Shown here: in pieces, positions 6,976 through 56,212 of the stretch
How the letters are laid out: every line of letters starts with the position of its first letter
Position numbering within the stretch: the stretch's first letter is position 1
Position numbers and translations under genes: made by a program
Assembly (NCBI GenBank): GCA_004431415.1
Contig: QPMI01000620.1
Location: 1-56,212 of the forward strand
DNA: 56,212 nt
Origin: Cyanophora paradoxa CCMP329
Taxonomy: Eukaryota > Plantae > Glaucophyta
Reading direction: 5' to 3'
Notes under the pieces: generated by a model
What the model saw: only the letters and a program-made list of their open reading frames with translations
Told to the model about the DNA's origin: nothing
Databases searched by the model: none

Positions 6976-7306
6976 CGGACGGCCCCAGCGACATACACGT
7001 GGCGCAACCCAATTTCCACTCATTTTTTCCCGCGTTGCATACTGGACCTCGAAAACGGCCTCATAGAAGAATTTTGGCTGAAGCGAGGGAACGGGAAGCA
7101 AGCTGGGAGAAGACCTTCGGTCTTCTTCCCCCCTTGCAATAATTGATTACTGTATTGCAAAGCAGGGAGATTACGCTAGAAGCTTAATTATAAGCTTGCA
7201 GCTTGATGAAGGAGAATTCGAGGACCCGCGAGCAGGTGACGGACTCGGAGGGGGACTCGGAAATGGAGCCCGAATCCTTCGAATTCCGGGAATTTCCGGC
7301 CACTGC

Positions 7307-34579: not shown

Positions 34580-36996
34580 ATGGTCGGCCGGGACCACGAC
34601 GTGCTGCACGTCCGCTGCAGCGCGAGCGATGACGAGGATTGCGACGCCACAGGCCACGGCAGAGCCAGCGGCCTGGAGTGCCGCCCGGTGGCGCGCCGCT
34701 GGCTCATGCTCTTCATTTACAGCTGTCTCGCTTGCGCCTGTGATGTGCTCTGCTTCACGTTTGCCTCCGTCAACCGCGCTTCTAAGGATTTCTTTCACGT
34801 TAGCAACTACTATGTGCGTGTTCCCGGCCCCGCGCGCCGACTTTGATCTCGGATTTGATCCGGACTCGCGAACAGACGAACAACCTCGTCTCCGTCTTCT
34901 TCTTCACGTACATACCCCTCAGCTTCGTTTCCACGTTCTTTATGATCCGCGCTGGTCTCCGAACCGCCGTGCGCGCCCCCTGCCCACCCGCTCGCACGAC
35001 TTCGCCGCGGCCCGCCCGACTCCAGCCGGCACAGGTGGTGCTCGGAGGGGCCCTGCTCGCTGCGGGCGCCTGGGTGCGGGTAGCGGCCTGCTACCTCCCT
35101 GACCCCTGGCCCTACTGGGGGGTTCTGGCGGGCCAAACCGTCTCCGCGCTCGGCGCCCCGTTCTTCTCCGCCGCCCCGCCCCTCCTCTCCGCCAACTGGT
35201 TCCCCGAGCGAGAGCGCACCATCGGTGCGAGAGCGAAGCCGTACCCCCACCCGGCTCCCCCCCCGGCTTTTCCGACCGGCTGCCGCCGCCGCCGCCAGCC
35301 ACAACAATCGCTGTGGACGCCACCCTTCTGGGAGTCGCCGTCTCGTTCGCGGCGGGTCCGTACATCGTCGTCGACGCGACGTACATACCGTGCGCCCCGG
35401 CGAAGGATGAAGAAGCTCGGAGCGCCCCACCTGACTTGCCCCCCGCCAGGACGCTCCTCACCGTGTACGCGGCGGTCGTCTCAGTCGCTGCGTTCGCAGC
35501 CGCCGCCCTCTTCGAGTCTGAGCCGCCTGTACCCCCCTCGCATGCCGGTACGCCTCCGTGCCGCATCGCCCCGGCTCCCCTCGACCCGGCGGGGGGATCA
35601 GCGGCGAAGAAGGCGGAGGACGAGGGGCTCGTCGAGGTGCACTGGCGCGACCTTCTCCAAGTGTTCCGGTACCCCCCCCCTTCCGCTATCCACGTATCCC
35701 TTCCAGCCCCTCACGTCGCGGCCCCGCGCCCCCTCCAGCGTCCGAGGCTTTCCAACCGTCGTCATCGGATTCGCGGTGCGCCGCTGAAGTTTACGCTTTG
35801 CCGGCTGTACCCCGTTCTTTGATCGGAGCTGTACCCCCACAGGTCAGCGAGACGTGCATTAACACGCTGCCCATCATCCTGTATCAGTACCTCGTCCCCC
35901 TGGGCTTCCCCAAGGCGCGCACGACCCCGTACCCCCCACCAAGCGCTCCTTGAACCCCCCCGCAGGGGTACGTGGGCTGGCTCGGCGCCCTCTTCGTAGT
36001 CGCGGGCATCGTCGGCAGCATCATCGTCGGGTTCCTGGTACCCCGTACCCCCCTCCAACTCTTTCCCCGTCTTCTTTGCTTTACACCTTCTCTCAGATCC
36101 GGAGCGCCGATCACTTCCGCTGGACGCTGGCCATTGCGTTCGGCGCCTCCTCGGCAGCCATGGCCGTGTTCACTCTCTGCGTCGGGGCCGCCCTCGTGTC
36201 CGCGTACCCCCGCATCTCACTCCCCCCCCCCATTTCTTAGATCTCCTCCGCAGCGACTGGATCACTTATTCGGTCGCGGCGGTGGGGTTCTTCATCGGCG
36301 CCGTGCGTACCCACCTCCCGACCCCACCCCTGGACGGAAATGATGTACCGCCTCTTCGCAGGTCGAGCCCGTCGCTACGGAGCTCGGCGTCGAGGTCGCG
36401 TACCCCGCCCCGGAGGTACCCCCCATCCATCCCTCTCCCACCCCCGCGGCGAATCCTTTACCCCCGCCGCCCGCCAGGCAACGGTCGCCGCGGTCCAGCA
36501 GCTCGTCGGACAGGTCCGTACCCCTCCTCATCGCCCCCCCCCCCCCCCGCCCTCCCCCCTCTTACCCGTCCACTACAGCTCTTCTGCCTCCTCTTCCTTC
36601 CCCTGATTACTATCCTCGAAGACCCGACTTACTTCTCGGTAGCCCCCTTCCTCTTACTCGTACCCCTCCGACTGTGCAAACCTCACCCCCACGGCAGGGG
36701 GGCGGTGCGGCCGCCTGGTTGCTGACGGGCCTCCTGGCCTTTGGCCTTCCCGCATTCGTCTTCTTGTGCGCCGTACCCCCTTCCCCTCTCTCTCGCCGTA
36801 CCCCGTCCCTTTCGCTGACGGGGGGTACAGCAACGGGGAGACGAGGCGGGCGGATCTCGAGAAGGAGCACCTCCTTGCGTCGCACCACTCGGCGGCCGGC
36901 CCCGAGGAGGGGTACGGCACCGCGCAGCCCCAGCGGCTGCCGGGGTTGTACCCCCCGAAAGACGTAATTGGAGGTGCGGGCCCTGGCGCCTGCTGA
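34580..36996 (+). CDS. MFS transporter, SLC49 (FLVCR/DIRC2)-like (multi-exon)
   Basis: RRWLMLFIYS, NNLVSVFFFTYIP, GLRTAV, GAWVR, GQTVSALGAPF..PPLLSANWFPERERT, PPVPPS, ELGVEVAYP. Confidence 0.88.
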
Positions 36997-37404
36997 CACC
37001 GCATGAGCCCGGCGCCTGCCGGCGACCCGGCAGCGGAGGCAGGCTCTCAGACCGTCGCCGCCTAAAGAAAATCCTTTTTACTATAGAATCTCTGCCTTCG
37101 AGCGCAGCTGTACATTCAGCTGTACAGAGTTGAGGGATTCATCCGCATTATAGCTATAGTGAACATTAGGACGTTTCTTGAAACATATGTAGGCCTGCGA
37201 GTTTTGTATGCATGTCTTCGCTTAAGCTTCAACGTTTGTTGTAGTCTTGCTCTATCGAATGCCAGTGCCCCGCGCGCGGATCTCAGAGTTCCGTGCGCCC
37301 CGCGGATCCCGCTGTGAGGTCGGGTCCGGCCAGCATTTTGATTTTCGAATTTCGAAATTCTCGAGTATCGAATTTCAGGGTGGGTACAGGCTCACTTGAC
37401 GACC

Positions 37405-37959
37405 ATGCCGCCGAAGAAGCAGAAGGCCTCGCCGGCCGCTCCTGCGACGTCGACGGTTCCGGATGTGGCCGTGTACATTCATGTGCCCGGAATCGGTAAA
37501 AAAAGGGCGAACATCTTCCAAGTGGAGGCGACCAAGCTCGGTCCGCGCGCCCCCGCCTTCGCAGCGCGCGCGCGTCCCGGGAAGCTCCAAGTCATTCTTT
37601 ATCTCGCGCATGCAGGCTTCGCGGTGCACACGAAGCTCGAGCCGGGCACCACGCATGTCGTCCTTGGTCGCTCGCTCAACGCCTTCCTCGGCGATCTTCG
37701 ACTCAGCGAGGTTCGCGGAGCGGTCTCGAGCACTCGCGCCCGCGCCTTCGCCTGCGCGTATGCTCGCTTGCAGCTGTTCTTCGATTCGCTAGCGCGTCGC
37801 CGGGCCATGTTTTCTTCAAATGCTACCGGTATTGCAAATATTAATGACGCTTGCACTCAGGTTCCTGCCGTGCACTTCGTGCCTCCGGAGTGGATATCGG
37901 CTTGCGCGACAAAGAAAGAGCGGGTGCCGGAGGCGGACCACCCGCTAGCCAGGCCTTAC

Positions 37960-37999
<40 letters not shown>

Positions 38000-40572
38000 T
38001 CCGCCAGGCGACCCTCGCCAAGACGCCGCGGGCGGCAGCGCTAGCGGCCGCGGCCGCGGGTGCCGGCTCGAGCTCGTCGACCTCGTCGCACGCGTGCGAG
38101 CCGGGCGAGTCTAGATCTGCCGCCGCAGCGCTAGCCGCGCCGGAGACCGCCCCGGAGCCGGAGGTCGACCCGCCGCGCCCCGCGTGCTGCAAGCGGCTCC
38201 GCTACGATCTCGACTCCGATTGCGACGCGGCTCCGTCCAAGAGCGACACGGATCCAACACACGTGGTGCGAAGCAAATTTCTGTGTATGCGTACTACTGT
38301 ATGTTCTTTTTTGGCACCGATTTCGAATACTACGTCGCAGTTGCAGAGTGGAACCCAGAACTACGACCCGAGGGACTTCTCACAGGCCGAGGACCGCCGC
38401 CGCCCGCGCTTCGAGACGAACGCGAAAATGTCAGTTGTTGATCTCCGATTATTCGGTCTATTTCGATATCCCTGTCTGAACTGGAGGACAGAGCGGAGCT
38501 GCTGGAGCAGCTGGGTGATTATTGTGAGGCTCGCGGCTTCAACAAAGACATCTTCAAATCCAATGCCTTCACCCGCGCCGGCAGCAAAATTAAGTACCTC
38601 TCTTGCGAGGTGCGCTTTTATCGTCTGGGAGCTTGTGCTAAATATCCGATATCCCGTCTAATCTTTCTCTCTGATTCTGCATCGAAGCTCAGGGTGCCAT
38701 GCGAGGAAGATCTGAAAGACTTCAAGGGCGTGGGCCCAAGCACATTTGCGCTGGCCCGCCAGGACGCGGCATCCTGGCGTGAGTATCGCCTCTGAGTGAG
38801 CGCACCTTACCCGCAGGTCAACGAATATCTCGAGACAGGCAAGATGCAGAGGGTCCGCCTTTCTATGGCCGCCCTTGTCCCTGCAGACATTTCCACGTGC
38901 AATCTAGATCTATTTCCCGCCCCGCGCCCGTTCAGGTCATTGAAATGTCACGCACGGAGCCGCTCAAAACCCTCCGCCTCTTTAAGACCGTCTGGGGTAC
39001 GTAAACGGATGCGCTCGCAATCGCCGCCTGCGAACCCCTCCCGCCTTCGTCTCACTACGCCGCCGCCGCCGCCGCAGGGATCGGCCTGGAGGAGGCTAGG
39101 AAGCTGTACGGCCGGGGGTACAGGACGATCCAGGACCTCCAACTCCACGTGCGGGCCCCGATGCTGACGAATTGTCTATTCATTCTGAAGGGCGTCTGAC
39201 GTGCACGTGCGTCTCGCGGGCGCAGCGGGGCGAGCTCACGAGAGCGCAGCAGATCGGCCTCCGCCTCCGCGACGTGCGTCGTACCCCCGCCAGCTTCCCC
39301 CCCCCCACTCTCCCGCAGGACTTTCTCCAGCGGATCCCGCGCGCGGAGGCGAGCCTGTACCCCCGCCCTCGATGCCCCCTGCCCCTAACTTCGCCCCAGG
39401 TGAAGCGCGTCGAGGACAAGGTGAAAGAGGCCGCTCGGGGAATCGACCCCGGGTTCCTCGTCCAGTGCTGCGGCTCGTACCGGCGCCTCAAGGTCCGAAT
39501 CGGATTAGATTTGATCCAAATTCGATCCGAATTCGATCGCAGCCGGACTGCGGGGACTGCGATGTGCTCGTCAGCCACCCGACCCTCGTGCGCCGGGGCC
39601 CTCCGTACCCCTCTGCTCCTCGGGCTCCTAATCTCGAATTACTCTTTCGAAATCGCAGCATATGGGCGCCCTGGGGGTCCGCCGAAGCGTCGACGTCGGT
39701 TTCGTACCCCCCTGAAGGCTCAGGATCACGTACCCCCCGGCGCTTCGCAGAAAATCGTCGAGTCTCTCAAGGCGAGCGGGTTCATCACGGACACTCTGAG
39801 GTACTTCGCACGGTCATTTGCGTACCCCCAATTTTCCGCCGACCCCTGTACCCCCGCAGCTTCTCGAAGGGCCCCGACGGCCGACCCCCCAGCGCCGATG
39901 CCCCGCCCCGTGCGGTCCACCGCCCTCGAGCCCCGCCCGCCGCCGCGTCGTACCCCGTTCCCCGCCCGACTCGCGTACCCCCAGTCACGCCGCAGCGGTT
40001 CTTCGGGGCGTGCCGCCTGCCGGACGAGGCGGACCCGTCCAGAATGCTGCCCCACCGCCGCCTGGACATCATCGTCGTACCCCACGAGCAGTGGGCGTGC
40101 GCCCTGCTCTACTTGTGCGCGCTCTTCTGCGTACCCCTCCTCGTGTCCCCCCCCCCTCCCCCCGCCCCGGCGTTCGAGCTCGAGGGGTACGGCGCGGGCG
40201 CAGCACCGGCTCGGGCTTCTTCAACCGGCGCATGCGCTTCAAGGTGGGCCGGCCCTTGGCCCTCCGCACTCGTTCCCTCGCTGTGCGTGATCCGTGCATG
40301 TACATGTACCCCCCGCAGGCCCGCACCCTCGGCATGTGCCTCAGCGAAAAGACAGTCCGCTACGTCACCCGCGACCGCCACGTGCGTACCCGCAACCCTA
40401 CCCCTTTCCCCCTTCGCCCGACCCCATGGCCACCCCCTTCCCTCCCGCCTGTACCCCTCCCTCACGGCGCCGGGCGCCCTCAGATGAATATCCTGACTGA
40501 GGAGCCGCCCATCCCCGTCCGCTCCGAGGAGGTCCGCACACGTACCCCCGGCCCCCTTTCCTGTCCGCTCAG

Positions 40573-40613
<41 letters not shown>

Positions 40614-40676
40614 CAGGACGTCTTTAGGGTCCTGGGGATGGAGTACGAGGCGCCCGAGGAGCGCAACCTCGACTGA
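37405..40676 (+). CDS. POLL: DNA polymerase lambda-like (family X) with N-terminal BRCT domain (multi-exon)
   Basis: BRCT (TTHVV..VPPEWISAC), HhH FKGVGP and VWG|IG, LTRAQQIGL, DFLQRIPRAE, CGSYRR, CGDCDVL, HRRLDIIVVP..WACALLY, TGSGFFNRRMR, EEDVF..LGMEYEAPEERN. Confidence 0.92.
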
Positions 40677-41263
40677 TCTCTTAGGCCTCGAGCCTCGGAC
40701 CGGAGGTGCTCGGCGCCGCGGTTTTCTTACGTCGTGTTATAAAAATTATCCTCGAACACGCTCGCATGCATGCGCGCTCGGCAATGATGCCGGCGCTGCC
40801 GCCGCCGCCGCCGCTGATTCTGTCGATGGAGGGCCCGTACGCGTGGTACCGGTCCGGAGCGCGCGGCTCCGGCGCCGGCGCCGGCGCCGGCGGCGCGCCC
40901 AAGGATCGGAGGCCTAGGGGAGGAGCTCGAGGGGCTCGGGGGCGGGCCGTGGCCAGGGGCGGGCAGGGCGGCTGGGCGCGGCCGCGGGGGTTCTGGCTGC
41001 TCATCGTGTGCTCCCCTGGCCATGGCCATGGCGCCGGCCACGGCCTGCTGCTCGTCGAGCCGCTACCTGCCTCCTCCTAGGCTAGGCCCTCCAGGCTTGA
41101 ATTACATGTTTACCTGCCACAGTGCAGGGTGCAGCCTGGCAGGCTGCGCATGCGCTCGGAAAAAGAGTTCAAAAGACTCGGATCATGACACGTGTACATG
41201 TGAATACGTATACGCGGGACTCGTCGGAGGCTCGGCGGAGCCCGCGCCGGCCCCGCCCTAACC

Positions 41264-41338
41264 CACACATATGAATATTCATATTTTAATCCCTCGGCGT
41301 TCCGCCTCAGGATTAAAATATGAATATTCATATGTGTG
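41264..41338. repeat. Terminal hairpin: perfect 29-bp inverted repeat with 17-nt loop
   Basis: cacacatatgaatattcatattttaatcc (41264-41292) / ggattaaaatatgaatattcatatgtgtg (41310-41338); each arm contains the 16-bp palindrome atatgaatattcatat. Confidence 0.95.
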
Positions 41339-41339
41339 A

Positions 41340-41590
41340 TTCGATGTTATATCAATAAAATCGATTAATTTATTTGAATTTTCACATGAATTTTCATATT
41401 TTTAAATGCATTTTCAATTAATTTAATCGATGTTATATCGATAAACTCGATTAATCGATATTGTATCTTAATTGTAGTTAATCGGAATTATATCTATAAC
41501 TTCGATTAATCTTAATTGAATCCTAAATGAATCTAATCGGAATTATATCAATAAATTCGATTAAATCATGTTCTTTTCCGATTAAATCAA
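41340..41590. repeat. AT-rich iterated imperfect palindromes (~30-bp unit x4)
   Basis: tcgatgttatatcaataaaatcgattaat-like units at ~41341, 41428, 41482, 41538. Confidence 0.8.
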
Positions 41591-41725
41591 TTAAATATTT
41601 AACTTTGTTACCATAAGTGGTCTAAGTTGACTCACTTTTCATAAACATTTTGAACTCTTAGTCTTCTTGAATTTCTTAAGATGACTCAACTTAGTCAACT
41701 TAGTCAACTTTGTTACCATAATCAA

Positions 41726-42442
41726 TCAGGGTGGACTCACTTTTAGATCAACTTTGAAATTTCAAGCAAAATCAACTTATATTTCAAAAGTGGATCTTCT
41801 AAGTGGACTCATAATGTTCACTTTGTGATACATTTAAGTTCTAATGCTTACTGTATATGGTCAGGGTTGACTAAGTGGGGGGAGTTGACACATTTTTCAA
41901 AATCTTTTATAGAATATTCTTTGGATCTCAAAATTTCCTCTGAAATTTGAGTCAACTCAACCCACTTAGTCAACCTTAGCATTGAAATGGTCACATTTTT
42001 ATATACATTTACTCCTTTTACGATTAATATGAATCAACCATGAGTCCACTTAGTATTAAATATCAATCAATGTAAATATAAACAAGGGAATTAAGAGGAA
42101 TGCTTATTGAATATGGTCAGGGTGGACTCACTTTTTCATACAAATCGAATTCCCAAGTAAATTTGACTCTAAACTGTTAGGTGGATCTTCTAAGTGGACT
42201 CAATATGTTCACTTTGTGATACATGTTAGCTCAAATCCTTACTGTTTATGGTCAGGGTTGACTAAGTGGGGGGAGTTGACACATTTTTTGAAATCCTTTT
42301 TAGAAAACTTTAGGTCCCAAATATTTCCTGTGAAATTTGAGTCAACTCAACCCACTTAGTCAACCCTTGCATTGAATTCGTAACAAAATCCATATACTTT
42401 TACTACTTTTACGATTAATATGAGTCAACCTTGAGTCCACTT
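41726..42442. repeat. Two diverged direct repeats (period ~390 bp) built of GTTGACT/GTGGACTC motifs in both orientations
   Basis: 41726-42052 vs 42117-42442; each holds ggttgactaagtggg...cccacttagtcaacc inverted arms. Confidence 0.9.
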
Positions 42443-42718
42443 TAATATAAATATAATATAATAGGGGGAATGTTGAGTTTTACTGTAATGAAATCGAATA
42501 GTATTCGAAATCTTACACTTGTAGGTTTAGGATGCATTCATATTTTGGCTACATCATACAGTAGAATTCTATTGTAAAAAATGTCCGGAATCCGGAAAAT
42601 AATCATTGTAGAAAGCTACTGTAGTAAAAGGATATATTATATCCTTTTGTAACAGTAGCTGATCAATGTTAGTTTTAGAAAACAAAGGAATCCTTTAAAA
42701 ACTCATTATAAAAACCCA

Positions 42719-43117
42719 TCAAAACGGGAATCTATCATGTTTATGTCTCTCAGTCTTCTCAAATGTTAAGAAATTCATTGTTTTATCGATCTCATCTGCA
42801 ACTGCTTGTGTTTTATGCTGAGCTTCTTTACCACAACTGAATATATCAATTGCTAACATGCCTTCATTGGAATAACAATGAGCTGTGCAATGGCTTTCAT
42901 CTAATAGCAGAACCAATGCAAAACCAGGAGGTGATATTTTGCCATCAAATATCTCACAGTGTTTATGAACAATCCTAATGCCTTGTCTTAATACTGCTTG
43001 TTCAAGGGTTCCCATAATCCAATTACCTAGGAAGCTTACATGCTCATGTCCTGTTGCAATAGCTGATTTAGCCTTGTAATCAAGCATAACATGAAAGCCT
43101 CTGTATTTAGTCTCCAT
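42719..43117 (-). CDS. speD: Pyruvoyl-dependent S-adenosylmethionine decarboxylase proenzyme (prokaryotic SpeD/SpeH type)
   Basis: 132 aa; GFHVMLD, FDG..PPGFALVLLLDESHCTAHCY..EGMLAIDIFSCG (E|SH self-cleavage site, catalytic Cys in SCG). Confidence 0.9.
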   Translation of the reverse strand: METKYRGFHVMLDYKAKSAIATGHEHVSFLGNWIMGTLEQAVLRQGIRIVHKHCEIFDGKISPPGFALVLLLDESHCTAHCYSNEGMLAIDIFSCGKEAQHKTQAVADEIDKTMNFLTFEKTERHKHDRFPF

Positions 43118-43140
43118 TAAGAATACCTTAGAAAAATTAA

Positions 43141-43413
43141 CTAGTCAAACCTAATGCAAACATCCCTGTACTCTACTTTGATTGATGAAGTAGCCCTTTT
43201 CCTATAAGCCTGAGAATGCTTTTTGTTGCATTCCCTGCAACCTGATCCCTTCACATGATTAAAGGGATATGTTAGGATCACCTTGTTACATTGCAAACAT
43301 CTAACAGATACTTTCTCTTGAGCTTTGATGTAATGTGTCTCACTGTAATCGAATTTATCTTTACCATGAACTGTCATAGCAGCATCAATAAACTTTTTTG
43401 TTTTAGTATCCAT
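43141..43413 (-). CDS. DUF723-like zinc-binding repeat protein (single unit, no nuclease domain)
   Basis: FIDAAMTVHGKDKFDYSETHY..KVSVRC..C..P.NH.KGSGC..C pattern, as in repeats attached to viral homing endonucleases. Confidence 0.75.
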   Translation of the reverse strand: MDTKTKKFIDAAMTVHGKDKFDYSETHYIKAQEKVSVRCLQCNKVILTYPFNHVKGSGCRECNKKHSQAYRKRATSSIKVEYRDVCIRFD

Positions 43414-43435
43414 ACTCTATATATAACCAATATTC

Positions 43436-44268
43436 TTATGGAGCAGTATCCTGCCCGAAAATGGGGAAATATCGATTTGTGCCATAGTATTCAGCATAGG
43501 TATTCTGCTTTGCAATAAAATCGGTTCTCTCAGCATATAATACACACTTGTAGATACCAAACTTGGTGGCTCTCACCAGAAACTGATAGTCTTCCAAACC
43601 GAAATTGACTCCATGATAAGCAATTCCGAAATTATCATATGGGGTGATCACAACTGCAAAATTAGGAGTTCCTCCCTCTGCTTGACAAAGAGCATAAACA
43701 TCTGGTGGAATATCCACAACTACCTTGTAGTGGTCACCAATCTCAACAAGAGAGTCTACTACTGCTGTTTGTTCATTTACTACAATGGGGAATATCTTTA
43801 TAATGTATGGGGCATTCATGCTGGGGACATAGGTTCGAATTCTTGTGTTGGGATCAATGGGATTGGGTTGATCATTCACAAATAAAGGCGCTCCAACAGC
43901 CCCACCAACCCTAAGACCATCACCAATATAAGCTCCCCCCGATTTGCAGTTAATAGCTCCAGACCTAGATTCAAAAGAATAAGTAGAAAGAGGATCTCCA
44001 TAGCTATCTGGGTCTCCATAATGAGCAGAAAAGTTTGCATTTGTCACAAGTAGCTTAGTCGTCTTAACTATTCCATTATTTTTATCACATCTGAGTTCCT
44101 TTAATCTCAGCTTGTGGGTGGAACCAAATGTGTTCATTGTAGGTTGGACCTCTGTGGATTGGAGACCCTCCACATCATCAAAGGTAGCATGCTGTAAAAC
44201 ATGGTTTGCTGGGGCAGCTAATGATAGTTGAGGTGTAATAATTCGTTCAAGTGGGGTTGCTCAGCCAT
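43436..44268 (-). CDS. Fibre-like paralog A (1-nt frameshift near 44254)
   Basis: Restored N-terminus MAEQP(P)LERIITPQLSLAAPANHVLQH aligns with paralogs; KELRCDKNNGIVKTT..SGGAYIGDG. Confidence 0.7.
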
Positions 44269-44291
44269 TTTACATTAAAGGGATATATCTT

Positions 44292-45137
44292 TTATGGGGT
44301 TGGGTCATCAATTACATCTGGCTCTTGGTAAAACCCTGTTTGAGAAAGAGTATCAGGAGTAACACCTCTAAGAGCTGAGACAGCAGCTATATCTGTTCTG
44401 ATACCCATAACTGTAATTGTATATTTTCCAATATCTGTAACAAACAGATCATAGGTGAAATTGTTATTATAAACACAGAACCCTGTGCCAAAATGATCAT
44501 ATCCCTGAACACTGAAATTGTATCTGTGACCTGGCTGGTTATTGTTGGCTCTACATAAAGAAAGCATTGCAGAAGGAATGACCAGCCCTCTCATTACTCT
44601 TTTGGTTCCTTCAATCAATTCAGAGTTTTCAAGTGTGACAGTATAACCTTGGTAAAATTGAATAAGTGGCTGTTGTGCAACTGGTATATATAATCGAATT
44701 CGTTGGGGGTCTTCAACATTCTGCTCAAGAGTATCTGGGACATCATTATACGAAATTGAGGATGAGAGTTGACCTGAAACTCTGCAGCCACCACCAATAA
44801 ATGCTCCTCCTGATCTCACAGTTACAGCAGCAGTGTTTTTATCATAATCAAGGGCTTTCAGATCAACACTGTAAGCATCAGGACCTCCATTAGTAGGCTG
44901 GAAAAAGTTAGCATTTGTGACAAGAAGTCGAGTTGTTTTCACCACACCTGAATTCTTATCAGCTCTCAGCTCTTTAACTCGAATAATCGAATTTTTATCA
45001 AAGGAGTTGCCATTGGAATTGGGTCTCTCTGTGGATTCTAAACCACGAACCTCATCATTTACTTCATGCTGGCGAAAATGCATTGCAGGGGATCCAAGGG
45101 AATATATAGGCAGTTGAACTCGATTATATTCACCCAT
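44292..45137 (-). CDS. Fibre-like paralog B
   Basis: KELRADKNSGVVKTT..SGGAFIGGG; C-terminal head similar to paralog A (IP..LC..F.V..YD.FG..G.Y....RTD). Confidence 0.75.
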   Translation of the reverse strand: MGEYNRVQLPIYSLGSPAMHFRQHEVNDEVRGLESTERPNSNGNSFDKNSIIRVKELRADKNSGVVKTTRLLVTNANFFQPTNGGPDAYSVDLKALDYDKNTAAVTVRSGGAFIGGGCRVSGQLSSSISYNDVPDTLEQNVEDPQRIRLYIPVAQQPLIQFYQGYTVTLENSELIEGTKRVMRGLVIPSAMLSLCRANNNQPGHRYNFSVQGYDHFGTGFCVYNNNFTYDLFVTDIGKYTITVMGIRTDIAAVSALRGVTPDTLSQTGFYQEPDVIDDPTP

Positions 45138-45172
45138 TGCTTCTTTTACTAAGAAGGAAAGAAAAATAATGT

Positions 45173-45439
45173 TCATTGTTCTTCTGTGACAATGTTATAC
45201 TCGATTGCTTTTTTCACAGTCCCCCTTTGGAATGCCTGTAAAACAATAGCTTCCTTTGAGGTTGGTATTTGAACTCCTCCCGAAATGCAAGACTGAATTT
45301 CTTTCTGAACAATCTCATCAATTGCAATTCTTGCTCTGTTGTGGGCTGCATTGTCAATCCAATTCTGAACAGAAGCAGAGCAATATTCCATTCCCAGTTT
45401 TTCAGTATCTGAGAGGACTACTTGGTAGATATTCGACAT
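45173..45439 (-). CDS. Small helical protein of the type found after C1q fibre genes in aquatic tailed phages (putative fibre chaperone/partner)
   Basis: 88 aa; VLSDTEKLGMEY..SVQNWIDNAAHNRARIAIDEI..QAF..G.VK; family recalled from memory, not searched. Confidence 0.6.
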   Translation of the reverse strand: MSNIYQVVLSDTEKLGMEYCSASVQNWIDNAAHNRARIAIDEIVQKEIQSCISGGVQIPTSKEAIVLQAFQRGTVKKAIEYNIVTEEQ

Positions 45440-45461
45440 TCCTATTTTATGGTGAGAAAAT

Positions 45462-46490
45462 TTATGTGATGCTGATAAGCTCACCTGCAAATGCTGTTTT
45501 AGAAGAATAAACCCCATTTGTATTTGTAACAAGTGTTACATACTCATTAGCAGCAATATAGAGAATACAATTTAGCGAAATGGTTTTGTATCCAGCAGTG
45601 TTTGAGGCAATTACATTTATTGCAACACCACTTGGGTTTGCATCATTTACTTGAAGAGTAAGCTCTATGGGTAGTGATGAGGCTTGTGAGTAGGTAACTG
45701 CTGAAAAACGGTAATGCCCTGAAACAGGAGCAGTAAATCTCCCATTAGCAACTGCAAAATGATTTGTAGGATGATTTAAATGAACGATTCCCCAATTTAT
45801 CAAAGCAGTGGCGCTTGTTGCTGTATGATTATAGTTTAGCTGAACACAGAATCTTGGTTGGGACTGATATTTAAAATAGTTCTGTGTGTTAATTGTCAGA
45901 CAGTTCGATTCAAGCAATGCCACAGTATTGCTATTGCGTTTAAAAAGCAGATTTGTGGCAGATCCAGTATCTATTTCAGGAGTAATCACTTTTGTTAATG
46001 CTTGGATTATCTGTTGGGACTGATTGGGTATCGAAATACCAGCATTTGCTGTCACCAACCCTGTAAATGTGCTTGTTCCTGTTATGTTTACTTGATTGGC
46101 TGCAAGATTTCCATCAATCCTTGCCCCATCTCCAATGTAAGCTCCTCCACTCTTGACAACAAGAGCTGCATTATTGCTTGTGTTGTCAAAATTTATTAGT
46201 TTGGGTGTGGTGAACCCTCCCACATCATCATAAATTGCTGAATCTGAAACAATCGATCCTGATTGGACTTGGTTTTTATTTGATACTATGAGACCTGTGG
46301 TTCTCACCTTCCCATTATTGCGATCACATCTTATTTCTTTGCATCTAATGACAGAGTTCTGAGAGAATGAATCAGCTCCTGTTGTCTCTGTGCAAATAAA
46401 ACCTGGTGTAGCATCTGTGACAGTGTGATTAAGTTGATGTATTTTTGGTGCTGCATAACAGAAAACAGGTACTGCTATCTGAGTAGTCAT
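45462..46490 (-). CDS. Fibre-like paralog C with C-terminal gC1q/TNF-like head
   Basis: KEIRCDRNNGKVRTT..ALVVKSGGAYIGDG; QPRF..INWG.VHLN..F..NGRFTAPVSGHYRFS..FAGELI. Confidence 0.82.
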   Translation of the reverse strand: MTTQIAVPVFCYAAPKIHQLNHTVTDATPGFICTETTGADSFSQNSVIRCKEIRCDRNNGKVRTTGLIVSNKNQVQSGSIVSDSAIYDDVGGFTTPKLINFDNTSNNAALVVKSGGAYIGDGARIDGNLAANQVNITGTSTFTGLVTANAGISIPNQSQQIIQALTKVITPEIDTGSATNLLFKRNSNTVALLESNCLTINTQNYFKYQSQPRFCVQLNYNHTATSATALINWGIVHLNHPTNHFAVANGRFTAPVSGHYRFSAVTYSQASSLPIELTLQVNDANPSGVAINVIASNTAGYKTISLNCILYIAANEYVTLVTNTNGVYSSKTAFAGELISIT

Positions 46491-46512
46491 TCTTTACATT
46501 AGACAGACAATA

Positions 46513-47568
46513 TTATGTTAAACTCACAAGCATCCCACCAAAAAGTAAACGGGAGGGATATGTTGAGTAAGGATAATAAAGTTGTATAGAGTCATTTTGG
46601 GAAAGATTAATTAAAATGTCAAGTCCATAGCAAGTGACTCCACCTTTTTCTTGGTTATACACTTGCAATCCGGTATCTGCTCCATTTTTGTATATCATTA
46701 GATAAAATATTGTCGATGAAGTTCCAATTGAGAAGAAGAACCTGTAACATCCAGCAATTGGTGCTGTAAAAGTGCCTGTTGTGGGGTCAAAGCAATTTCC
46801 CTGATCTACCAACTCTGTTCCATAAGAAGTTATTGGACCAGATCCAGAAGGTATTGTGAAAGTTAAAGCTCCATTTGGCGATTGCTTTGCAGCAAAAAAT
46901 CTTGGGCAACCATTTCTTTTCAAATACTTTTCGTTTGATAGTGTCAGAGTTTCGTAATGAGTGGGTGTCTGTAAATTGGAAGGTATCTTTTCAAGAGAGA
47001 AAATCGTAATACCATTTCGTTTATAGTTCGCATTGGTATCTGATCCATTATCTACCTCAGGTGCATTAATTCTTGTAGTAGCTGTGAGAGTTCCATATTG
47101 GATATTTCCTGAGAGACCACCATTCAAAGACATCAATCCTGTGAATGTACTTATCCCACCCACATTTAATTGATTAGCTGTGACAGTTCCTGCTACATTT
47201 GCTCCATCACCAATGTAGGCTCCTCCACTTTTAACCACAAGTGCAGAATTATTACTTGTGTTATTGAAAGTAACTATCTGTGCTGTGGTAAATCCACCTA
47301 CATTATCATATACTGCTGAATCCGGGACTACCTGACCTGCTTGAACCTGATTCTTATTCGAGATAATAATCCCTGTGGTTCTTATCTTGCCTCCATTTCG
47401 ATCACATCGAATTTCTTTGACTCTGAGAATATTGTTCTCTGTGAAAGAGGTATTGCTTGAAGTTTCAGTGCAAATATACCCAGGGGTTGAATCAACTACT
47501 TCATGAGAGGTGCTATGGAGTGATTTGGCTGCAAGTTCATAGTTTGGGATTTCTAATAGAGAGGTCAT
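46513..47568 (-). CDS. Fibre-like paralog D with C-terminal gC1q/TNF-like head
   Basis: KEIRCDRNGGKIRTT..ALVVKSGGAYIGDG; PRFFA..DQGNCFDPTTGTFTAPIAGCYRFFFS..LSQNDSI..FGGMLV. Confidence 0.82.
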   Translation of the reverse strand: MTSLLEIPNYELAAKSLHSTSHEVVDSTPGYICTETSSNTSFTENNILRVKEIRCDRNGGKIRTTGIIISNKNQVQAGQVVPDSAVYDNVGGFTTAQIVTFNNTSNNSALVVKSGGAYIGDGANVAGTVTANQLNVGGISTFTGLMSLNGGLSGNIQYGTLTATTRINAPEVDNGSDTNANYKRNGITIFSLEKIPSNLQTPTHYETLTLSNEKYLKRNGCPRFFAAKQSPNGALTFTIPSGSGPITSYGTELVDQGNCFDPTTGTFTAPIAGCYRFFFSIGTSSTIFYLMIYKNGADTGLQVYNQEKGGVTCYGLDILINLSQNDSIQLYYPYSTYPSRLLFGGMLVSLT

Positions 47569-47587
47569 CTTTATAATAAAGAAATAG

Positions 47588-50500
47588 TTAAATTGCGACA
47601 GCAATGTAATGAATTGTAACTGGAAATCCAGGTCTGTCAAAAGAACTTAATGGAACTATTTCAAGCTCACATGTGAAATAGCTACTGTAAACTTGTTTAA
47701 GCCTAACATACATGCGGTAGTAGTAGGCTGTCTCATTGTGTTGTATACCGGTTGTTACAATAGGAGGGTTAGCAAAGCTGCTGTTGAAATTAATAGTGAG
47801 GTTAAACCTATGGTCAGGGTTTGCCCAAAGATAAGGAGTAGTGTAAACATACGTTCCTGCTTGAATTTTCCCATTAAAATATGCATTGAGTTGACTGGAA
47901 AGATCTGCTTCTGTGATACATCTACTAATAGTGGAGCTATCTGTGGGGTTCATAGCATAGAAATTCCTTGCATATGCATTTCCTCTGACCAGTAGGGTTT
48001 GATCATAATAATTCTGCGAATTGTGGAAGAACCATGTTTCATCAAACATAGGTCCTGCTGGCTCTACAATCTGACCTGTTCCTACATACATTGTGCTGTT
48101 TGCTCTGATAGTGGTTGCTGTGAATGGATCCAGAGAAGGTCGATCTGTAATATCTCCCCAAAGGTGTGTGTGTGCAAAATCTGTAATTTGAGATTTAGTG
48201 TGAGTATGTGCAAAGTCTGTTATCTCACCTTTGGTGTGAGTGTGTGCGAAATCTGATATCTCACTCTTTACATGGGTATGGGCAAAATCTGTAATCTCAC
48301 TCTTAAGATGATTGTGTGCAAAATCTGTTATCTGTGACTTGGTGTGAGTGTGAGCAAAATCTGTTATCTCAGATTTAAAATGAGTGTGAGCGAAATTAGT
48401 AATATCTGCTCTGGTGTGGAAGTGGGCAAAATCTGTTATCTGGGATTTGGTGTGAGTGTGTGCGAAATCTGTGATCTCTGCCTTTGTGTGAGTGTGTGAT
48501 CTATTATTAAGATCAAGGAAGCTACCTGAATAAGCAACAGGGTGCAGGTTTGCAGCTGTAGGTTTATTCAGGAGATCATTATAATCTCCTGTGAAGGAGA
48601 TTGTTTTTAGTTCACCCCTTCCAACATAATCAGAAGGGAGATCAATCTTGATAGGCATTATAGCAGGATCAACTGGAATCTCATATTCACCTCCTGGGTG
48701 AACCACAGGAAAAGTTTGATTGCTTTCAGTGTGGACAAAGAAGTTGCATGCTGTTACTGTTCCATCAATAATCCCACCTGTGAGAGGGAGGTAATTGCCT
48801 GTGACTCCTATACCTGCAATGACTGTATTAAGTTCTGTTTCATCTATGTAGTTCTGGGCTTGAAGGTAATCCTCTGTCACCACTCTTGATATGGTCTCAT
48901 TGTGAATATTCTTTGCTGCTGCCCTTTGATTAATTTCTAAAACTCCCTCACCCACTCCACCATTATAATTCGTTTTATCCATGCCATCTCACATCTCTTG
49001 TAGTCATCTCGATTTCCTAGAACAGCATCAGGTAACAGTCTCTCTCTGCTAAATATTAATTTTGGTCTTGAACCATCCAAATCACTCACATCAGTAACAT
49101 TAATTTGGATTGCTGCATCTTTGTCATCATAGTTGACTGGATCAGATGGTAGTGATAGTAAACCTCCTGTCATTGGGATGTCATCAGCATAGTAACTGGT
49201 TAAATAGATACCTGGTTTGGTGTCCAATGCTCCAAAGTTTCCACCTGCTGCAATCATCTGCATTCTTGTAGGGGTCTGATGTATAATTCACCTTCCATAG
49301 TGGTCCCTGCATCAATACCCTTTCGATTGACATAATAATCATTTAGTTGTAGCCTCTCAGGTATGGTATTACTCTGGTAAAGACTCACACCATGTGGGAA
49401 GTCTGTTAACAGATTGCCTGCAGATGCAAATTTGGGTTGCTGGTCAATTTCACCCCAAGGGTGTCTGTGATTACAGTTGGTGATCTGGGTATAATCATGA
49501 GTGTGAGTATCAGGAGGGAAGGTGATAGGTTTGTCTACAATATTTGACCAGGCATGTGTGTGATCATCTGGGGAAAAGTCAATGGTCTGTCCACAATATT
49601 CGACCAGGCATGGGTGTGATCAAAATCTATAATTTGGTCTTGGTGTGGGTATGGTTTTGATCCACCCATCCACAACATTTGAAGTTGGATGATGTGGAAG
49701 GTTTGCATTAGATGTAACAGTAAGATAATCAACAGTTATATTACTTGCATAAAGGTTACTTGTGTAAAGGTTACTGGTGACAGTTAGGTCCCTGTGATTG
49801 TTCCACCAGTTTTAAGAAGATACTTTGATAATTCGACTGCAAGTTCATTTTTAGTTACATAATTTGCGAGCATAGCAAGGGTGACTATATTCACAAGAAC
49901 AACAGCAGTAAGGTAATCCTCTGTGACCACTCTCGAAATGCTCTCATTGTGTATGTTTTTTGCAGCCATCCTCTGATTGGCTTCCAGAACCCCACCATAA
50001 TCTGTTTTAATCCATGCAAGCTCTGCCCTCCCATAATTATCATTTGCAGTTCCCACTATGGGAATGTAGGAATACTTATCTCGACTGAAAACTATCATTG
50101 GTCTTGAGCCATCTAAGCTGCTTACATCTGCTACATGAACCTGTATAGCAGAGTTGTAATTTTGGTAGGTTGCTGGGTCTGTTGGGACTCTGAATGTATC
50201 TGTGGGAATGTCAGCCTCCATGTAGCTTGACACAAAGATATTTGGTATGGTCGCTCCTGGTTCAGGTGGTGGATTATAAGAGCCTGGTAATGTCCTAATA
50301 TGAAGTGGTCCTCTCATAGCTGAATTAGCAAGTGTCCCATTCACATGAACATAGTGTTCATTCAAAAAGATCCTTTCAGGGACATTACAAGTCTGGTAAA
50401 GAGAAACCCCCAAGTTATCAAGAGGCTCTACCTTTGCGAATTCTGGTTGGTCGTTGATCTCATCCCAAGTATGTTCATGTTTGCTTGGTGGGAACTCAGT

Positions 50501-51916: not shown

Positions 51917-51959
51917 GGCTTTTACTATATGGATTTATAAAATTCCTGATAAGTAAAAG

Positions 51960-53510
51960 ATGCCTCTCAAGGTCGTTTAAGTCTTTCTGGCGGGGTGCAA
52001 GGGGCATTATCATAACCAGGCTGCTAAAAGAAATCGAAAATCGAACTGGCAGGAGAATAATCGATCTTGTGATCTTGTGAGTGGAACTTCCACTGGTGGG
52101 ATCATTGCAATTGGTTTGAATATAAGGCATCCTGATAGACCAGGTGAACCTAAACTGACAGCAAACGATTTACACAATATTTACCTAACTCAACTGCCCT
52201 TGATTTTCGCAAATCTCGAATATAATCGAAAATGCCCTTTTAATACAAAGTATGATGTGGGACCCTTGGAGACTGCAATCAATTCAGTTACTGGTGAATC
52301 ACTAATACAGGATTCCCTAAAGGACATTGTGATTACATCCTTTGATACTCAGAATATGAAACCAATATTTATCACAAATGACAACAACTACAACTTTATG
52401 CCTTGTAAGATTGCTGCTAGGGCTACTTCTGCTGCTCCTACATATTTCTCTCCTGTAAGCATTGTTGATTTCAATCGGGGAGTATATGTCTGTCTCATTG
52501 ATGGTGCCATTTCGGGAAACAATAATCCCAGTGTGTGTGGTTACAGCCATGCAAAGAAGATTTACAGTGATGATGATGATATAATAGTAATAAGCATCTC
52601 TTGTGGAGAGGTGGACCCACATTTAGAGTCTGATTATGTGGGTTATGCTTATGAGACTGTAAACAGCTGGGGCATTCTCTCATGGATTGCCTCAACAGAT
52701 GGAAGCCCATTGATTAACATGCTCATGGCTGCAAGTGAGCTTTCTGCCCTTGATAAGATGGAGGAGTTGTTACCCTACAACTATGATCAGGATTATGGGA
52801 GATACTATAGGCTATCAGTCCCACTTCCAAATCATATAGTAAGCTCCCTGGATGACACTTCTAAAATCCCAGACATGCTTGCATTCACTGAAACATACAT
52901 TGCAGCAAACAATGATATGATTAATAAGCTTTGCAGCCTACTAGTAGCAAACTATGAACTAAAGAACCCTACAAAGGCTTACATTTCATCCACTCTCACT
53001 ACATCACCTCCTTTGGATGCCAATTGGTATCAGCTTGCAGATGATGCCTTTACTGCCTCATCCTCTGTGACAGGTAAAGAGCCTTTCATGGCTAGACCTT
53101 CAGCATTTGGCTGGGAAGCTGGAGCCTATGCTCCTGAGCAGATATGGGAAACCCCCACTGAATACCTTCAAGTTGCTTTCCCATACACTTTTGAACTCTC
53201 CTCTGTGATTGCCTATGGCTCAGGGGACACCAATGCTTTTATTAAGACTTTCAATGTGGCAACATCCACTGATGGGATCAACTGGTCTTTTATTCGATCA
53301 GATGGGCAAAACAAAATGTATGTCTGTGAGAACATTAACAATGCTCACAACTCAGGTGATGTGGCTTTATTGAGTGGATTCCCTCTCAGCATCAAGGATG
53401 CTTTTTACATAGGTTTTTCTCTCAGAATTAAATATATTCGCATTTATCCCCTTGTGTATGTGAATGCTCCCACAATGAGAGTTGATTTCACAGGTGCCTT
53501 TATTCGATAA
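51960..53510 (+). CDS. Patatin-like phospholipase fused to a C-terminal discoidin (F5/8 type C) domain; three 1-nt frameshifts in the first 110 nt
   Basis: Restored LSLSGGGARG; GTSTG (Ser), ARATSAAPTYF, LIDGA (Asp); FTASSS..W..EYLQV..TS.DG.NW..YIRIYP..MRVD. Confidence 0.88.
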
Positions 53511-54416
53511 ACTCCAACTGAAAAGAATTATCGATTCCATTCATATCAATCAGTTCACCAAAGTAATCTTTAAACTCAACTGTGATTCCCTTATCACCAG
53601 GTTCTGTCATTTATCTGAATGAATTCTGCATGCTCACCACTATGGTAAACATAGCCACCTATATCCTTACTCAATTGCAATCTAAGGATTGCCCCTGTTA
53701 TGTGGTTGCGATTTCGGAACTATATTGTGTCTGCTGGCAAAGGGGCAAGCTCTTTAATGTGCATGTATAGATACTGCTCAGCATTCATATCAGACATCTT
53801 TCTGCTGTCAAAATAATATTGCAAGGCTTAGATGAGAGTCTGGGTCCTGAAAAGGTGTTCCCATGCTGGGTGATCAGGTGTAATAGGTTTGCCATCATAC
53901 TTTAACAGGTTCTCAGGTCGATAGGGTGATCCACCAACAGGAGGAGTGCTATAATACCCATTGGTGTATTCAGTAGAACTTACACCAAAAGCTTCCCTAT
54001 TCTCTGGTTGCTTGCAATAAACGAAACTCATGGTTACTGTAAAACTCCACTTTATAGGTAGTTGGGTTATAGAATATCTTGAACTCAAAAGCTACTGTTT
54101 TGCCTGCAATGGTTTGGAAGCTTGAATAATTCAGCCCATAATTATAAGGGTGTGTTACCCCAAAATGACCCTGATTGATGTAGCCACTGGGAAGGGATAC
54201 ACTTGTTGTGTGATCACTTGGTTATATGAACCATCTTGGTAATTAAACTGAACTGTTAGATGATCAGTTCCCAACTGTTATAGATGCTGTTGAATCTCTG
54301 CATATAGAACCTGCATTCCTTGGTCTCTCTACTGGAGTTGTGAGGGTGACCCTGTAAGAGTTTTCATTTTGTCCTTGGCTTCTATCCCTGCTATCAATAT
54401 TAACGAGCCGGTTCAT
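53500..54416 (-). CDS. Minor capsid protein (penton, single jelly roll) 1, frameshifted
   Basis: N-terminal MNRLVNIDSRDR..NSYRVTLTTP..VLYAEI.NSIY; internal QYLYMHIKEL; C-terminal ITVEFKDYFGELIDMNGIDNSFQLEF. Confidence 0.78.
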
Positions 54417-54445
54417 TTTAATATATAAATATAGATAAAAGAAGA
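54417..54445. promoter_or_regulatory. 29-bp AT-rich bidirectional promoter between the two penton genes
   Basis: tttaatatataaatatagataaaagaaga between divergent ATGs; similar 43-bp spacer at 51917-51959. Confidence 0.6.
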
Positions 54446-55441
54446 ATGCCTGTGGATTACATCGAGGTTAGCTCATTTAATACAATCTCTGGTGATGGTC
54501 CCACATCAAGCTTTGTGGCTAGACTCCCCAGTACTTATGAGAATGTGAGGGCTGTGAGACTGTCTCAGCCGAATTTTATAACAGCATCCCTATGGTGAGT
54601 GGTGAAACCAAAGCAGGAGATATAACAGTTGACAACACTTTTAGTATTTATTATTCTGAAGAGCTTGCGGGAGCTGGAATTACAGGAATTCCAACAACTC
54701 GCCCAGCTGCTGATTTTGAACAATGGAAACAATTCATTGTAAATCGCGAAACCCCCATTCAAAACCACCAACAGCTGGTGAATGTTATAAATGAAAAGTT
54801 TAATGACAGAATCCTAAACCATCTGTTCGCTGCAAATGGGATGAGTCACTGAAACGATTATATTCCATCCGAAAAAAAGTTTTACCTGGCTTTCTCACTT
54901 GCTGTAGACCCAAACCTGAAAACAATCCAAAAGCTGTTAAGCTCAGCTCGACTTTTGGTCTTGATCCTGGAAGATATGGTAATTCCCCAATCAATCACAG
55001 GTCTATGATGCTCTCACTGATGGAATCTTTACTGAACTCGAGTAAACGTATTATATCTTCATTTGAGCCTGAAATGACAGGACAGTGTTTTGTTTGTGAG
55101 AGTAAAGGAGCTGGGTGATCTGGTGCAATGTGGGATGGTCTCCTGACTGGTTACTTCCATAAATAGTGGTCCCTGACAAAGATATGGTGAGCATGTAGTT
55201 TACAATTCGACAGAGGCTCATCCACTTTACAAATACTATAATAAGAAGGTTGATTATCCACTTTCTCGGTGATATTGTGAATGCTGTTAATGAACCAATT
55301 GATTTCGAGGGTCAACCTGTTCATCTTACCTTTGAAATTCGCTATGGTGATGAGCCAGCTGGGGACCCAGTTTATGAATACTATAAGATGAGAATGTCGC
55401 AGCTTCACCCTTCCTATCCAGTTATTACAAACTTCGCATAA
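54446..55441 (+). CDS. Minor capsid protein (penton) 2, frameshifted
   Basis: SSFVARLPSTYENVRAVRL..AEFYNSI; C-terminal LIIHF..NEPIDFEGQPVHLTFEI. Confidence 0.72.
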
Positions 55442-55493
55442 ATTAAGGATCATTGGTAGATTTTTTATGTTGCAGTATAATAAAGAGAATATA

Positions 55494-56212
55494 ATGATAT
55501 CACTTCCACTCTTCAAAGACTTTCGCTGAAAGAAGCCCTAACAACCCCAGAGGAGGCGAAAGCCTTTTTCCTGGATAACTCCCTTATGCTTGGTCTCGAA
55601 TCCAAGTCTAAGCCAGTTCTAGTTGTTGTGAATCCTAGTAATACTTTCACAAATAATGTAGGAAATCGCATTTCCTTCAAGCTACCTCGCTACAATTTCT
55701 GTGGAAAAACTCGAACTTGCTTTCGACCTTCCAGCCATCACTTTTGCTGGTGATACTGATCTAGTTCGCAATGGATACACTCGCCCAGTTGGTGCTTTAG
55801 TTCAGCGACTTGAAATTACCTATGGATCTTACACCTACCATATTCCATCTGATTTCCTTGCTCATTTCCCCCTGGTCTATTATTCGGAGGATCAACTAGC
55901 TAAAAAGAAACGATCAATGGGCATGGTTCATGGCATCCCTGCTCATGGAACCAACCGACTTGGTGGCTCATTTTTCGTTGAAATTCCAGTGCCTTGGCTA
56001 AAATCACTACCTTCCCCTTGGTGCTTTATCTGGTGAAATGGTTGTTACTGTTTGGTTTAAGGATGTTGGAAAAGGCTATGTTGAAACATCCTATGGTGGT
56101 CGTGGTCTTACTGTTGCAGCAGCTGATGTAGATTATTCAAAAGATGATGGTCTTGGAACTGCCCCTGCTGAAACTGTTCTGGCAAAATGTTGGTCAAAAC
56201 ATCACAGACTTT
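55494..56212 (+). CDS. Double-jelly-roll major capsid protein, 5' part (frameshifted, truncated by window end)
   Basis: GNRISFKLPRYNF..KLELAFDLPAI..VGALVQRLEITYG..FFVEIPVPW..GEMVVTVWF; directly downstream of the penton genes. Confidence 0.7.

What the first reader, a model, noticed from the sequence alone, without database searches (positions are those of the whole stretch)
41264..41338. Element begins exactly with a nested-palindrome hairpin
Seen: the compositional boundary coincides with a perfect 29-bp stem and a GC-rich 17-nt loop (itself ggcg..cgcc); each arm contains a 16-bp palindrome. Known: canonical Polintons end in simple TIRs used for protein priming, whereas hairpins are substrates for HUH nicking, telomere resolvases or tyrosine recombinases. 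Inference: this is the origin, resolution or attachment site and points to a non-canonical integration or replication mode.
Basis: partly seen in the sequence, partly recalled or inferred. Interest (0 to 1): 0.7.

Follow-up and report, generated by a model that had tools for sequence, protein, structure and literature searches.

The report
Fixed-orientation hairpin caps algal endogenous virus
A 73-base fold-back sequence forms the exact first bases of a capsid-encoding virus-like element that sits at many places in what is probably an algal genome; it likely serves as the end signal for insertion, and because its lopsided loop appears to point the same way in nearly all copies it likely does not prime copying in the way parvovirus or poxvirus hairpins do.

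Summary
Real and terminal. The window holds a perfect 29-bp stem, 17-nt loop and nested 16-bp palindrome at the GC step. Short-read contigs carry the hairpin unchanged at about 90 times host depth, and 7 other host-like flanks join at its base. The element starts at 41265, so the family stem is 28 bp; the 29th pair is a host base. The element encodes a double-jelly-roll capsid whose nearest relative is a Cyanophora paradoxa endogenous-virus capsid already catalogued. No integrase, Rep or polymerase lies in the window (0 of 83 frames); the other end is out of reach. New evidence: depth arithmetic in one run indicates one loop orientation in at least 90%, probably about 98%, of ends, against the flip/flop expected of hairpin-primed replication; flanks share no target motif. 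Terminal palindromes on endogenous virophages and Polinton-like viruses were reported in a 2026 preprint. Best reading: a conserved end-recognition signal for precise, untargeted integration (enzyme inferred). A mriyavirus-type HUH nick-and-join mechanism remains open.

The parts
41265..41337 (+). Terminal palindrome of the element (28-bp arms, 17-nt asymmetric loop); first 73 bases of the element
41264..41264 (.). Last host base; its pairing with 41338 makes the 29th pair at this locus only
   Evidence: varies among flanks; C share at most 0.57
41293..41309 (+). GC-rich loop with a 4-bp inner stem and 3 CpG; same orientation in nearly all ends
41269..41284 (.). 16-bp palindrome in the outer arm (mirrored at 41318-41333); likely binding site of a dimeric protein (inferred)
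41384..41399 (.). Degenerate third copy of the palindrome (2 mismatches), outside the hairpin
41433..41564 (+). AT-rich subterminal tandem repeat, period 55, 2.4 copies
41726..42507 (+). Two 391-bp units (303 of 403 columns identical), each with a 15-17-bp inverted repeat around an 80-nt spacer; part of a 1.45-kb non-coding end region, possibly a TIR (other end not seen)
42719..43117 (-). S-adenosylmethionine decarboxylase gene, first gene of the element
   Evidence: Pfam AdoMet_dc E 3e-11
45462..48982 (-). Three fibre/adhesin-like genes (two C1q, one tail-repeat plus H-lectin)
51981..53510 (+). Patatin-like phospholipase with F5/8 domain
53828..54420 (-). Frameshifted penton-like gene; the label rests on a recalled motif, no call confirmed it
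   Evidence: translation; no Pfam/NCBIfam hit
55484..56212 (+). Double-jelly-roll major capsid gene, in three frames, cut by the window end
   Evidence: 67%, 64%, 52% identity to P0001; P0001 near Capsid_N/Capsid_NCLDV clusters and listed as MCP in PMC10120064 Table S2
37396..40690 (+). Host family-X DNA polymerase gene (intron-rich) left of the insertion; bounds approximate
   Evidence: Pfam DNA_pol_B_palm; sequence

Best explanation
The hairpin is the nucleotide-exact, unvarying tip of a multi-copy endogenous virus with a double-jelly-roll capsid, and it likely acts as the end signal that an element-encoded integrase (probably of the retroviral/DDE kind) binds and joins to host DNA without target preference, while replication likely runs by a route that does not invert the loop. 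Shown: terminal position, conservation, many insertion sites, capsid gene. Computed from one run plus one contig: fixed loop orientation. Inferred: that the 16-bp palindromes (three copies near the end) bind a dimeric protein; that the enzyme is RVE-type (by analogy with Halocafeteria elements); that a matching end lies at the other side; that replication is protein- or primase-primed (the end begins with a dinucleotide repeat, as protein-primed ends often do: recalled knowledge).
For: Seven other flanks join at 41264/41265 or the mirror position (5 of 6 distinct loose-end contigs; 2 in X15). Hairpin contigs at depth about 5900-7200 against 64-78 for the host flank (ratios 81-159 by choice of contig), no other letter at 1% or more in 41190-41400, whereas listed differences begin at 41495. 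The last five host bases of 8 flanks share no motif beyond C or G at -1 (read). In X9 the bin sums solve only if one unbranched contig runs 41308-41339 at about 5850, 98.8% of loop depth; contigs leaving at 41337 total at most 576 (the same sums return 6000.0 for the unlisted 41294-41324 contig, matching its neighbour). X15 has one unbranched contig 41265-41822. In Halocafeteria, terminal palindromes adjoin target-site duplications on elements with RVE integrases; related virophages show no target preference.
Against: No integrase or replication gene was seen (0 of 83 frames in the window), no other end, no empty site and no target-site duplication: no two of the 8 flanks are reverse complements over their last 4-6 bases, but only 8 of about 90 ends were seen. 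The end does not read TG...CA or AG...CT (recalled retroviral and Polinton ends). The virus class is unresolved: Atlas neighbours are mostly labelled Nucleocytoviricota and mriyavirus-related regions, which carry HUH and no known integrase, are reported from a glaucophyte assembly. One X9 contig joins host-like DNA at 41337 (an inverted loop or a remnant) and one breaks at the loop apex. The orientation result rests on summed contig depths of one run, from a tool that filters some records.
Confidence: 0.5

Rival explanations
1. The element is mriyavirus-like; its HUH endonuclease nicks at the base of the outer arm, starts rolling-circle replication there, and the same enzyme joins the 5' end it holds to host DNA, which would give exactly host-arm-loop-arm-element in one orientation.
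For: Mriyavirus-related regions are reported embedded in a glaucophyte assembly; all mriyaviruses encode an HUH endonuclease most like that of SIRV1; rolling-circle copying keeps one ITR orientation in AAV; nearest capsid clusters are mostly Nucleocytoviricota; junction at the stem base resembles the AAV nick site next to the palindrome.
Against: No HUH, VLTF2/3 or other mriyavirus marker in the window (Pfam may not hold them); whether the reported glaucophyte regions are this family was not visible (figure and supplements not seen); no target motif in 8 flanks, whereas HUH transposases usually have one (recalled); no circovirus-type nonamer.
Confidence: 0.22
2. The palindrome folds back after excision and primes DNA synthesis (rolling hairpin), or is an opened, covalently closed telomere, as proposed for Halocafeteria elements.
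For: Very stable terminal hairpin; same model proposed in print; one contig compatible with an inverted loop and one broken at the apex.
Against: Terminal resolution gives both loop orientations independently; here at least 90%, probably about 98%, of ends share one. Survives only with an asymmetric resolution or an integration step that selects one isomer.
Confidence: 0.13
3. The hairpin is a tyrosine-recombinase attachment site: two arms bind the recombinase, the asymmetric spacer sets direction.
For: [quoted passage not shown]
Against: The crossover lies outside the arms, not in the spacer; 17 nt is far above the 6-8 nt of such sites (recalled); no shared core such as the phaeoviral CC among 8 flanks (2 of 8 end in CC for certain, one is unread).
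Confidence: 0.1
4. Assembly fold-back or a neutral, locus-specific palindrome.
For: The window has frameshifts typical of error-prone assembly; X1's flank contig stops at 41263.
Against: Short-read contigs of X1, X9 and X15 carry the hairpin, at thousands-fold depth in X1 and X9, and seven other flanks join at its base.
Confidence: 0.02

Closest known systems
Terminal palindromes of endogenous virophages (subtypes 1, 2, 5, 6) and PLV subtype 4 of Halocafeteria seosinensis (bioRxiv 10.64898/2026.07.28.741278; section 7 and passages read)
   Same: Palindrome at the very end of an integrated double-jelly-roll virus, next to host DNA; similar size (52 nt there, 73 here).
   Different: Here a 17-nt asymmetric, structured loop (their screen allowed gaps up to 10) and a nested palindrome; the loop lets the hairpin-priming model be tested, and the orientation found does not fit it. 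TIR, TSD and integrase not seen here.
Cyanophora paradoxa endogenous viruses of Bellas et al. 2023 (PMC10120064; passages and Tables S2, S4 rows read)
   Same: P0001, the nearest relative of the window's capsid, is listed there (HHpred 98.5% to an iridovirus MCP); 366 capsid genes in two clusters marked 'new'; another listed capsid begins almost as the window's does (by eye).
   Different: No description of the ends was found in what was held (Table S5 is cut before these rows).
AAV inverted terminal repeat (PMC11575299; passages read)
   Same: Terminal palindrome with nested symmetry; boundary at the stem base.
   Different: AAV ends occur as flip and flop under rolling-hairpin replication; here one orientation dominates; dsDNA element of more than 15 kb; no Rep seen.
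Mriyaviruses (PMC11253617; passages read)
   Same: Mid-size genome with a capsid closest to Nucleocytoviricota; reported in a glaucophyte assembly.
   Different: No marker gene could be checked; the paper's main text has no occurrence of 'integra' or 'hairpin'.
Phaeovirus attL/attP and telRL sites in Ectocarpus (PMC13236599; passages read)
   Same: [quoted passage not shown]
   Different: Those insert at a fixed CC by tyrosine recombinase and have the resolvase palindrome inside the genome; here no fixed target and the palindrome is the end.

Membership tests
Endogenous double-jelly-roll virus (PLV/virophage/mriyavirus grade) | DJR major capsid gene | tested here: met
   52-67% identity to P0001; Atlas 0.98 to Capsid_N/Capsid_NCLDV clusters, recognition value low; published HHpred assignment of P0001. 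Own fold was too poor to use (pLDDT 35).
Endogenous double-jelly-roll virus (PLV/virophage/mriyavirus grade) | Integrated at many loci with a sharp GC contrast | tested here: met
   67% to 30-41% GC; 8 flanks including this one
Polinton / RVE-type PLV | RVE integrase and pPolB (or primase-helicase) genes | not testable with these tools
   None in 83 frames of the 15 kb in view; rest of element not held
Polinton / RVE-type PLV | TIRs at both ends and 5-6-bp target-site duplication | tested here: inconclusive
   Other end not in window; no reverse-complement pair among 8 flanks of about 90 ends
Rolling-hairpin or closed-hairpin replicon (AAV, poxvirus type) | Terminal palindrome able to fold back | tested here: met
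Rolling-hairpin or closed-hairpin replicon (AAV, poxvirus type) | Flip and flop loop isomers at similar frequency | tested here: not met
   One orientation in at least 90% of depth in X9; unbranched contig in X15; one possible exception. Indirect: summed contig depths.
Tyrosine-recombinase attachment site | Crossover inside a 6-8-nt spacer and shared core with the target | tested here: not met
   Junction outside the arms, spacer 17 nt, no shared core in 8 flanks; spacer length of known sites is recalled
Circovirus/geminivirus-type HUH origin | Nonamer in the loop, nick in the loop | tested here: not met
   0 matches to the recalled nonamer pattern in 41200-41500; junction at the stem base
Mriyaviricetes | HUH endonuclease, VLTF2/VLTF3, capsid clade | not testable with these tools
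   No reference sequence could be fetched; genes lie beyond the window if present

The most novel reading that the evidence does not exclude
A mriyavirus-like virus that has colonised an algal genome about a hundred-fold by letting its HUH replication initiator nick the base of a terminal hairpin and join that end to host DNA: an integrase-free route for a double-jelly-roll virus, with the fixed loop orientation as its signature.
Probability: 0.2. Interest if true: 0.8.

Novelty: new variant of a known kind. Interest (0 to 1): 0.5.

Why it matters
How mid-size endogenous DNA viruses of protists replicate and insert is largely inferred from gene lists. A 2026 preprint proposed that terminal palindromes prime replication and asked for tests. 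A palindrome with an asymmetric loop records whether it has been through terminal resolution, and a family of about 90 ends gives the count: here the loop seems not to flip. That narrows the models and can be settled with existing raw reads and one complete copy, probably in a cultivable alga.

Tried and rejected
No whole genome is held, so other copies, the other end and the empty site could not be read. Exact searches for the end found 0 in viral contigs and 0 in metagenome contigs; capsid-based locus searches found no confirmed relative (viral; 40 metagenome). Protein searches gave only P0001 and P0003 as real relatives; P0002 and P0004 are repeat-rich chance hits and were dropped; the C1q protein had no hit. 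Structure prediction from two sequences failed (pLDDT 35) and its fold search was meaningless; PDB sequence searches blank. Rfam gave only sub-threshold microRNA-precursor matches, which any long hairpin gives. No RNA holder listed; X15 is only guessed to be RNA, so transcription is not claimed. X1's contig ending at 41263 was first read as an empty allele; no continuation was laid, so this was dropped. X1 bin sums were too fragmented to solve for orientation; X16 laid nothing. The CCCTAAC just left of the junction looks telomeric, but the other 7 flanks lack it and it occurs 3 times in the window: rejected as a target signal. Two papers sought by recalled id were not held, so SIRV and parvovirus left-end details are recalled only. 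Earlier scan notes by place and sequence were empty.

Full report
Observation. The sequence at 41264-41338 is a perfect 29-bp inverted repeat around a 17-nt loop, with a 16-bp palindrome in each arm. It is the longest perfect stem in the window (next 17 bp); shuffles of the terminal 1.45 kb reach at most 13 bp in 200 trials and the nested palindrome arises in 38 of 20000 arm shuffles. It folds at -31.7 kcal/mol, z -14.8. GC falls from 67% on the left to 30% in the next 1.45 kb and 39-41% beyond, and the likeliest change point is 41258-41268. The second palindrome is only the mirror of the first.

It is the real end of a multi-copy element. No genome is held, so I used public short-read contigs (24 runs listed, 20 holding part of the stretch; six laid). 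Host flank contigs have depth 39-95; hairpin contigs have 5917, 6000 and 5923 in X9 and 7229 in X1, with no other letter at 1% or more between 41190 and 41400. The ratio is 81-159 depending on the host contig chosen; depth is a rough guide only, so 'of the order of 100 ends'. Of 6 distinct loose-end contigs, 5 join host-like DNA at the base of the stem and 1 at the loop apex (41300); X15 adds 2 more at 41264 and 41265 (where 192 further loose ends were not shown). The shared contig begins at 41265, two flanks end in G at 41264, and C accounts for at most 57% of junction depth. So the element begins at 41265 and the family stem is 28 bp. At this locus contigs of X2, X11 and X9 run from host DNA to 41292 without mismatch, 28-29 letters into the element, which is under the tool's 31-letter rule; X1 stops at 41263 with nothing laid after it; X16 laid nothing.

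What the element is. To the right lie 1.45 kb of non-coding DNA with 55-bp and 391-bp repeats and further inverted repeats, then genes for an AdoMet decarboxylase, C1q and lectin fibres, a patatin, penton-like frames (label from a recalled motif) and a capsid gene broken into three frames at the window's end. Its pieces are 67%, 64% and 52% identical to P0001, a Cyanophora paradoxa protein listed as a major capsid protein in Bellas et al. 2023, Table S2; that genome has 366 such genes in two clusters marked new. The Atlas places P0001 at 0.98 near Capsid_N/Capsid_NCLDV clusters, with a low recognition value. The host is therefore probably Cyanophora or a relative (inferred from this relative and from composition; not tested directly). 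The class is open: PLV by the Bellas scheme, but a preprint reports mriyavirus-related regions in a glaucophyte assembly (figure and supplements not seen). None of 83 stop-to-stop frames of 50 aa or more in the element matched an integrase, recombinase, Rep or polymerase family; such genes may lie beyond the window.

The loop as a recorder. Because the loop is asymmetric, its direction relative to the element shows whether ends pass through terminal resolution, which in AAV gives flip and flop independently, whereas rolling-circle copying keeps one orientation (PMC11575299). In X9 the summed depths per bin and the 8 listed records can be solved: the unlisted contig 41294-41324 comes out at 6000.0, equal to its neighbour; contigs starting at 41308 and 41309 must satisfy 2a+b = 11704 and a+b at most 7267; and contigs ending at 41337 or 41338 satisfy g+2e = 1152. 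This is possible only if one contig runs unbranched from 41308 to 41339, at about 5850 or 98.8% of loop depth. An inverted end with host DNA would branch there or at 41337; those leaving at 41337 total at most 576 (under 10%), and one such contig was seen. X15 agrees: one contig spans 41265-41822, though only two flanks feed it. The limits are plain: one run solved, contigs rather than reads, and a tool filter that drops some records. X1 was too fragmented to solve.

Target sites. The last five host bases of the 8 flanks share nothing beyond C or G at -1 (6 C, 2 G, biased towards C by how they were laid); no pair is reverse-complementary over 4-6 bases. That fits untargeted insertion, as for mavirus-like elements, and not a fixed core as in phaeoviruses. 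Eight of about 90 ends cannot show or exclude a duplication.

Mechanism. Shown: a precise, conserved, multi-copy end. Computed: one loop orientation. Inferred: the palindrome, with a third degenerate copy at 41384-41399, is a binding site for a dimeric element protein; the end is cut and joined at the stem base by an integrase, most simply RVE-type as in the Halocafeteria elements whose palindromes adjoin target-site duplications; replication does not invert the loop. I give this 0.5. An HUH nick-and-join route, if the element is mriyavirus-like, explains the same junction and orientation (0.22). Hairpin priming or a closed telomere (0.13) needs an asymmetric step; the two odd contigs are its only support. 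A recombinase site (0.1) fits poorly. Artefact is excluded (0.02).

What is known. Terminal palindromes on endogenous virophages and a PLV were reported in July 2026, with a hairpin-priming model (section 7 read whole; passages; figures and supplements not seen). Searches returned no paper on the ends of Cyanophora elements or on loop orientation in such ends; the library lacks most subscription papers, and Table S5 of PMC10120064 is cut before the Cyanophora rows. Passages only were read of PMC12220804, PMC13236599, 10.1101/2025.10.09.676808 (55), PMC11071308, PMC12344493, 10.1101/2025.04.19.649669 (section 10 whole, 84), PMC11253617, PMC12210455, PMC8547959 and PMC11575299. Two earlier notes of this scan describe hairpins at or near the ends of such elements in other protists; they are unchecked leads.

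Verdict. What is added is the exact terminus, the spread through the genome, and a test that the published priming model appears to fail here. New variant of a known kind; interest 0.5.

Noticed in passing
window 41300 (contig in X1 and X9): One locus, depth about 94 in X9, joins host-like DNA at the loop apex: a truncated end, an excision remnant, or a hairpin opened at its tip.
   Followed up: partly
window 41337 (contig in X9): One contig leaves the hairpin at the mirror position of the terminus: a rare inverted-loop end or a solo hairpin between host flanks.
   Followed up: partly
window 42719-56212 versus 1-41264: CpG observed/expected is 0.24-0.26 in the element's coding part, 0.68 in its end region and 1.13 in host DNA; the loop keeps 3 CpG. 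C. paradoxa methylates CpG on repeats and viral genes.
   Followed up: partly
window 43436-47646: Four adjacent minus-strand genes share an N-terminal stretch with no Pfam match (seen; repeat D10); the first has only unnamed viral look-alikes at 0.93.
   Followed up: partly
window 42614-42660: A further 23-bp hairpin (87% paired) just before the first gene, in a region that varies among copies.
   Followed up: no
window 55484-56212 and 53828-55441: Capsid and penton-like genes are frameshifted; whether by decay or assembly error was not tested.
   Followed up: no
window 36500-40600: Host introns carry a recurring GTACCCC-type motif and long C runs before the acceptor, with many short introns in the family-X polymerase gene.
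   Followed up: no
window 22185-22463: Two GATCT-type tandem arrays that form palindromes in host DNA.
   Followed up: no
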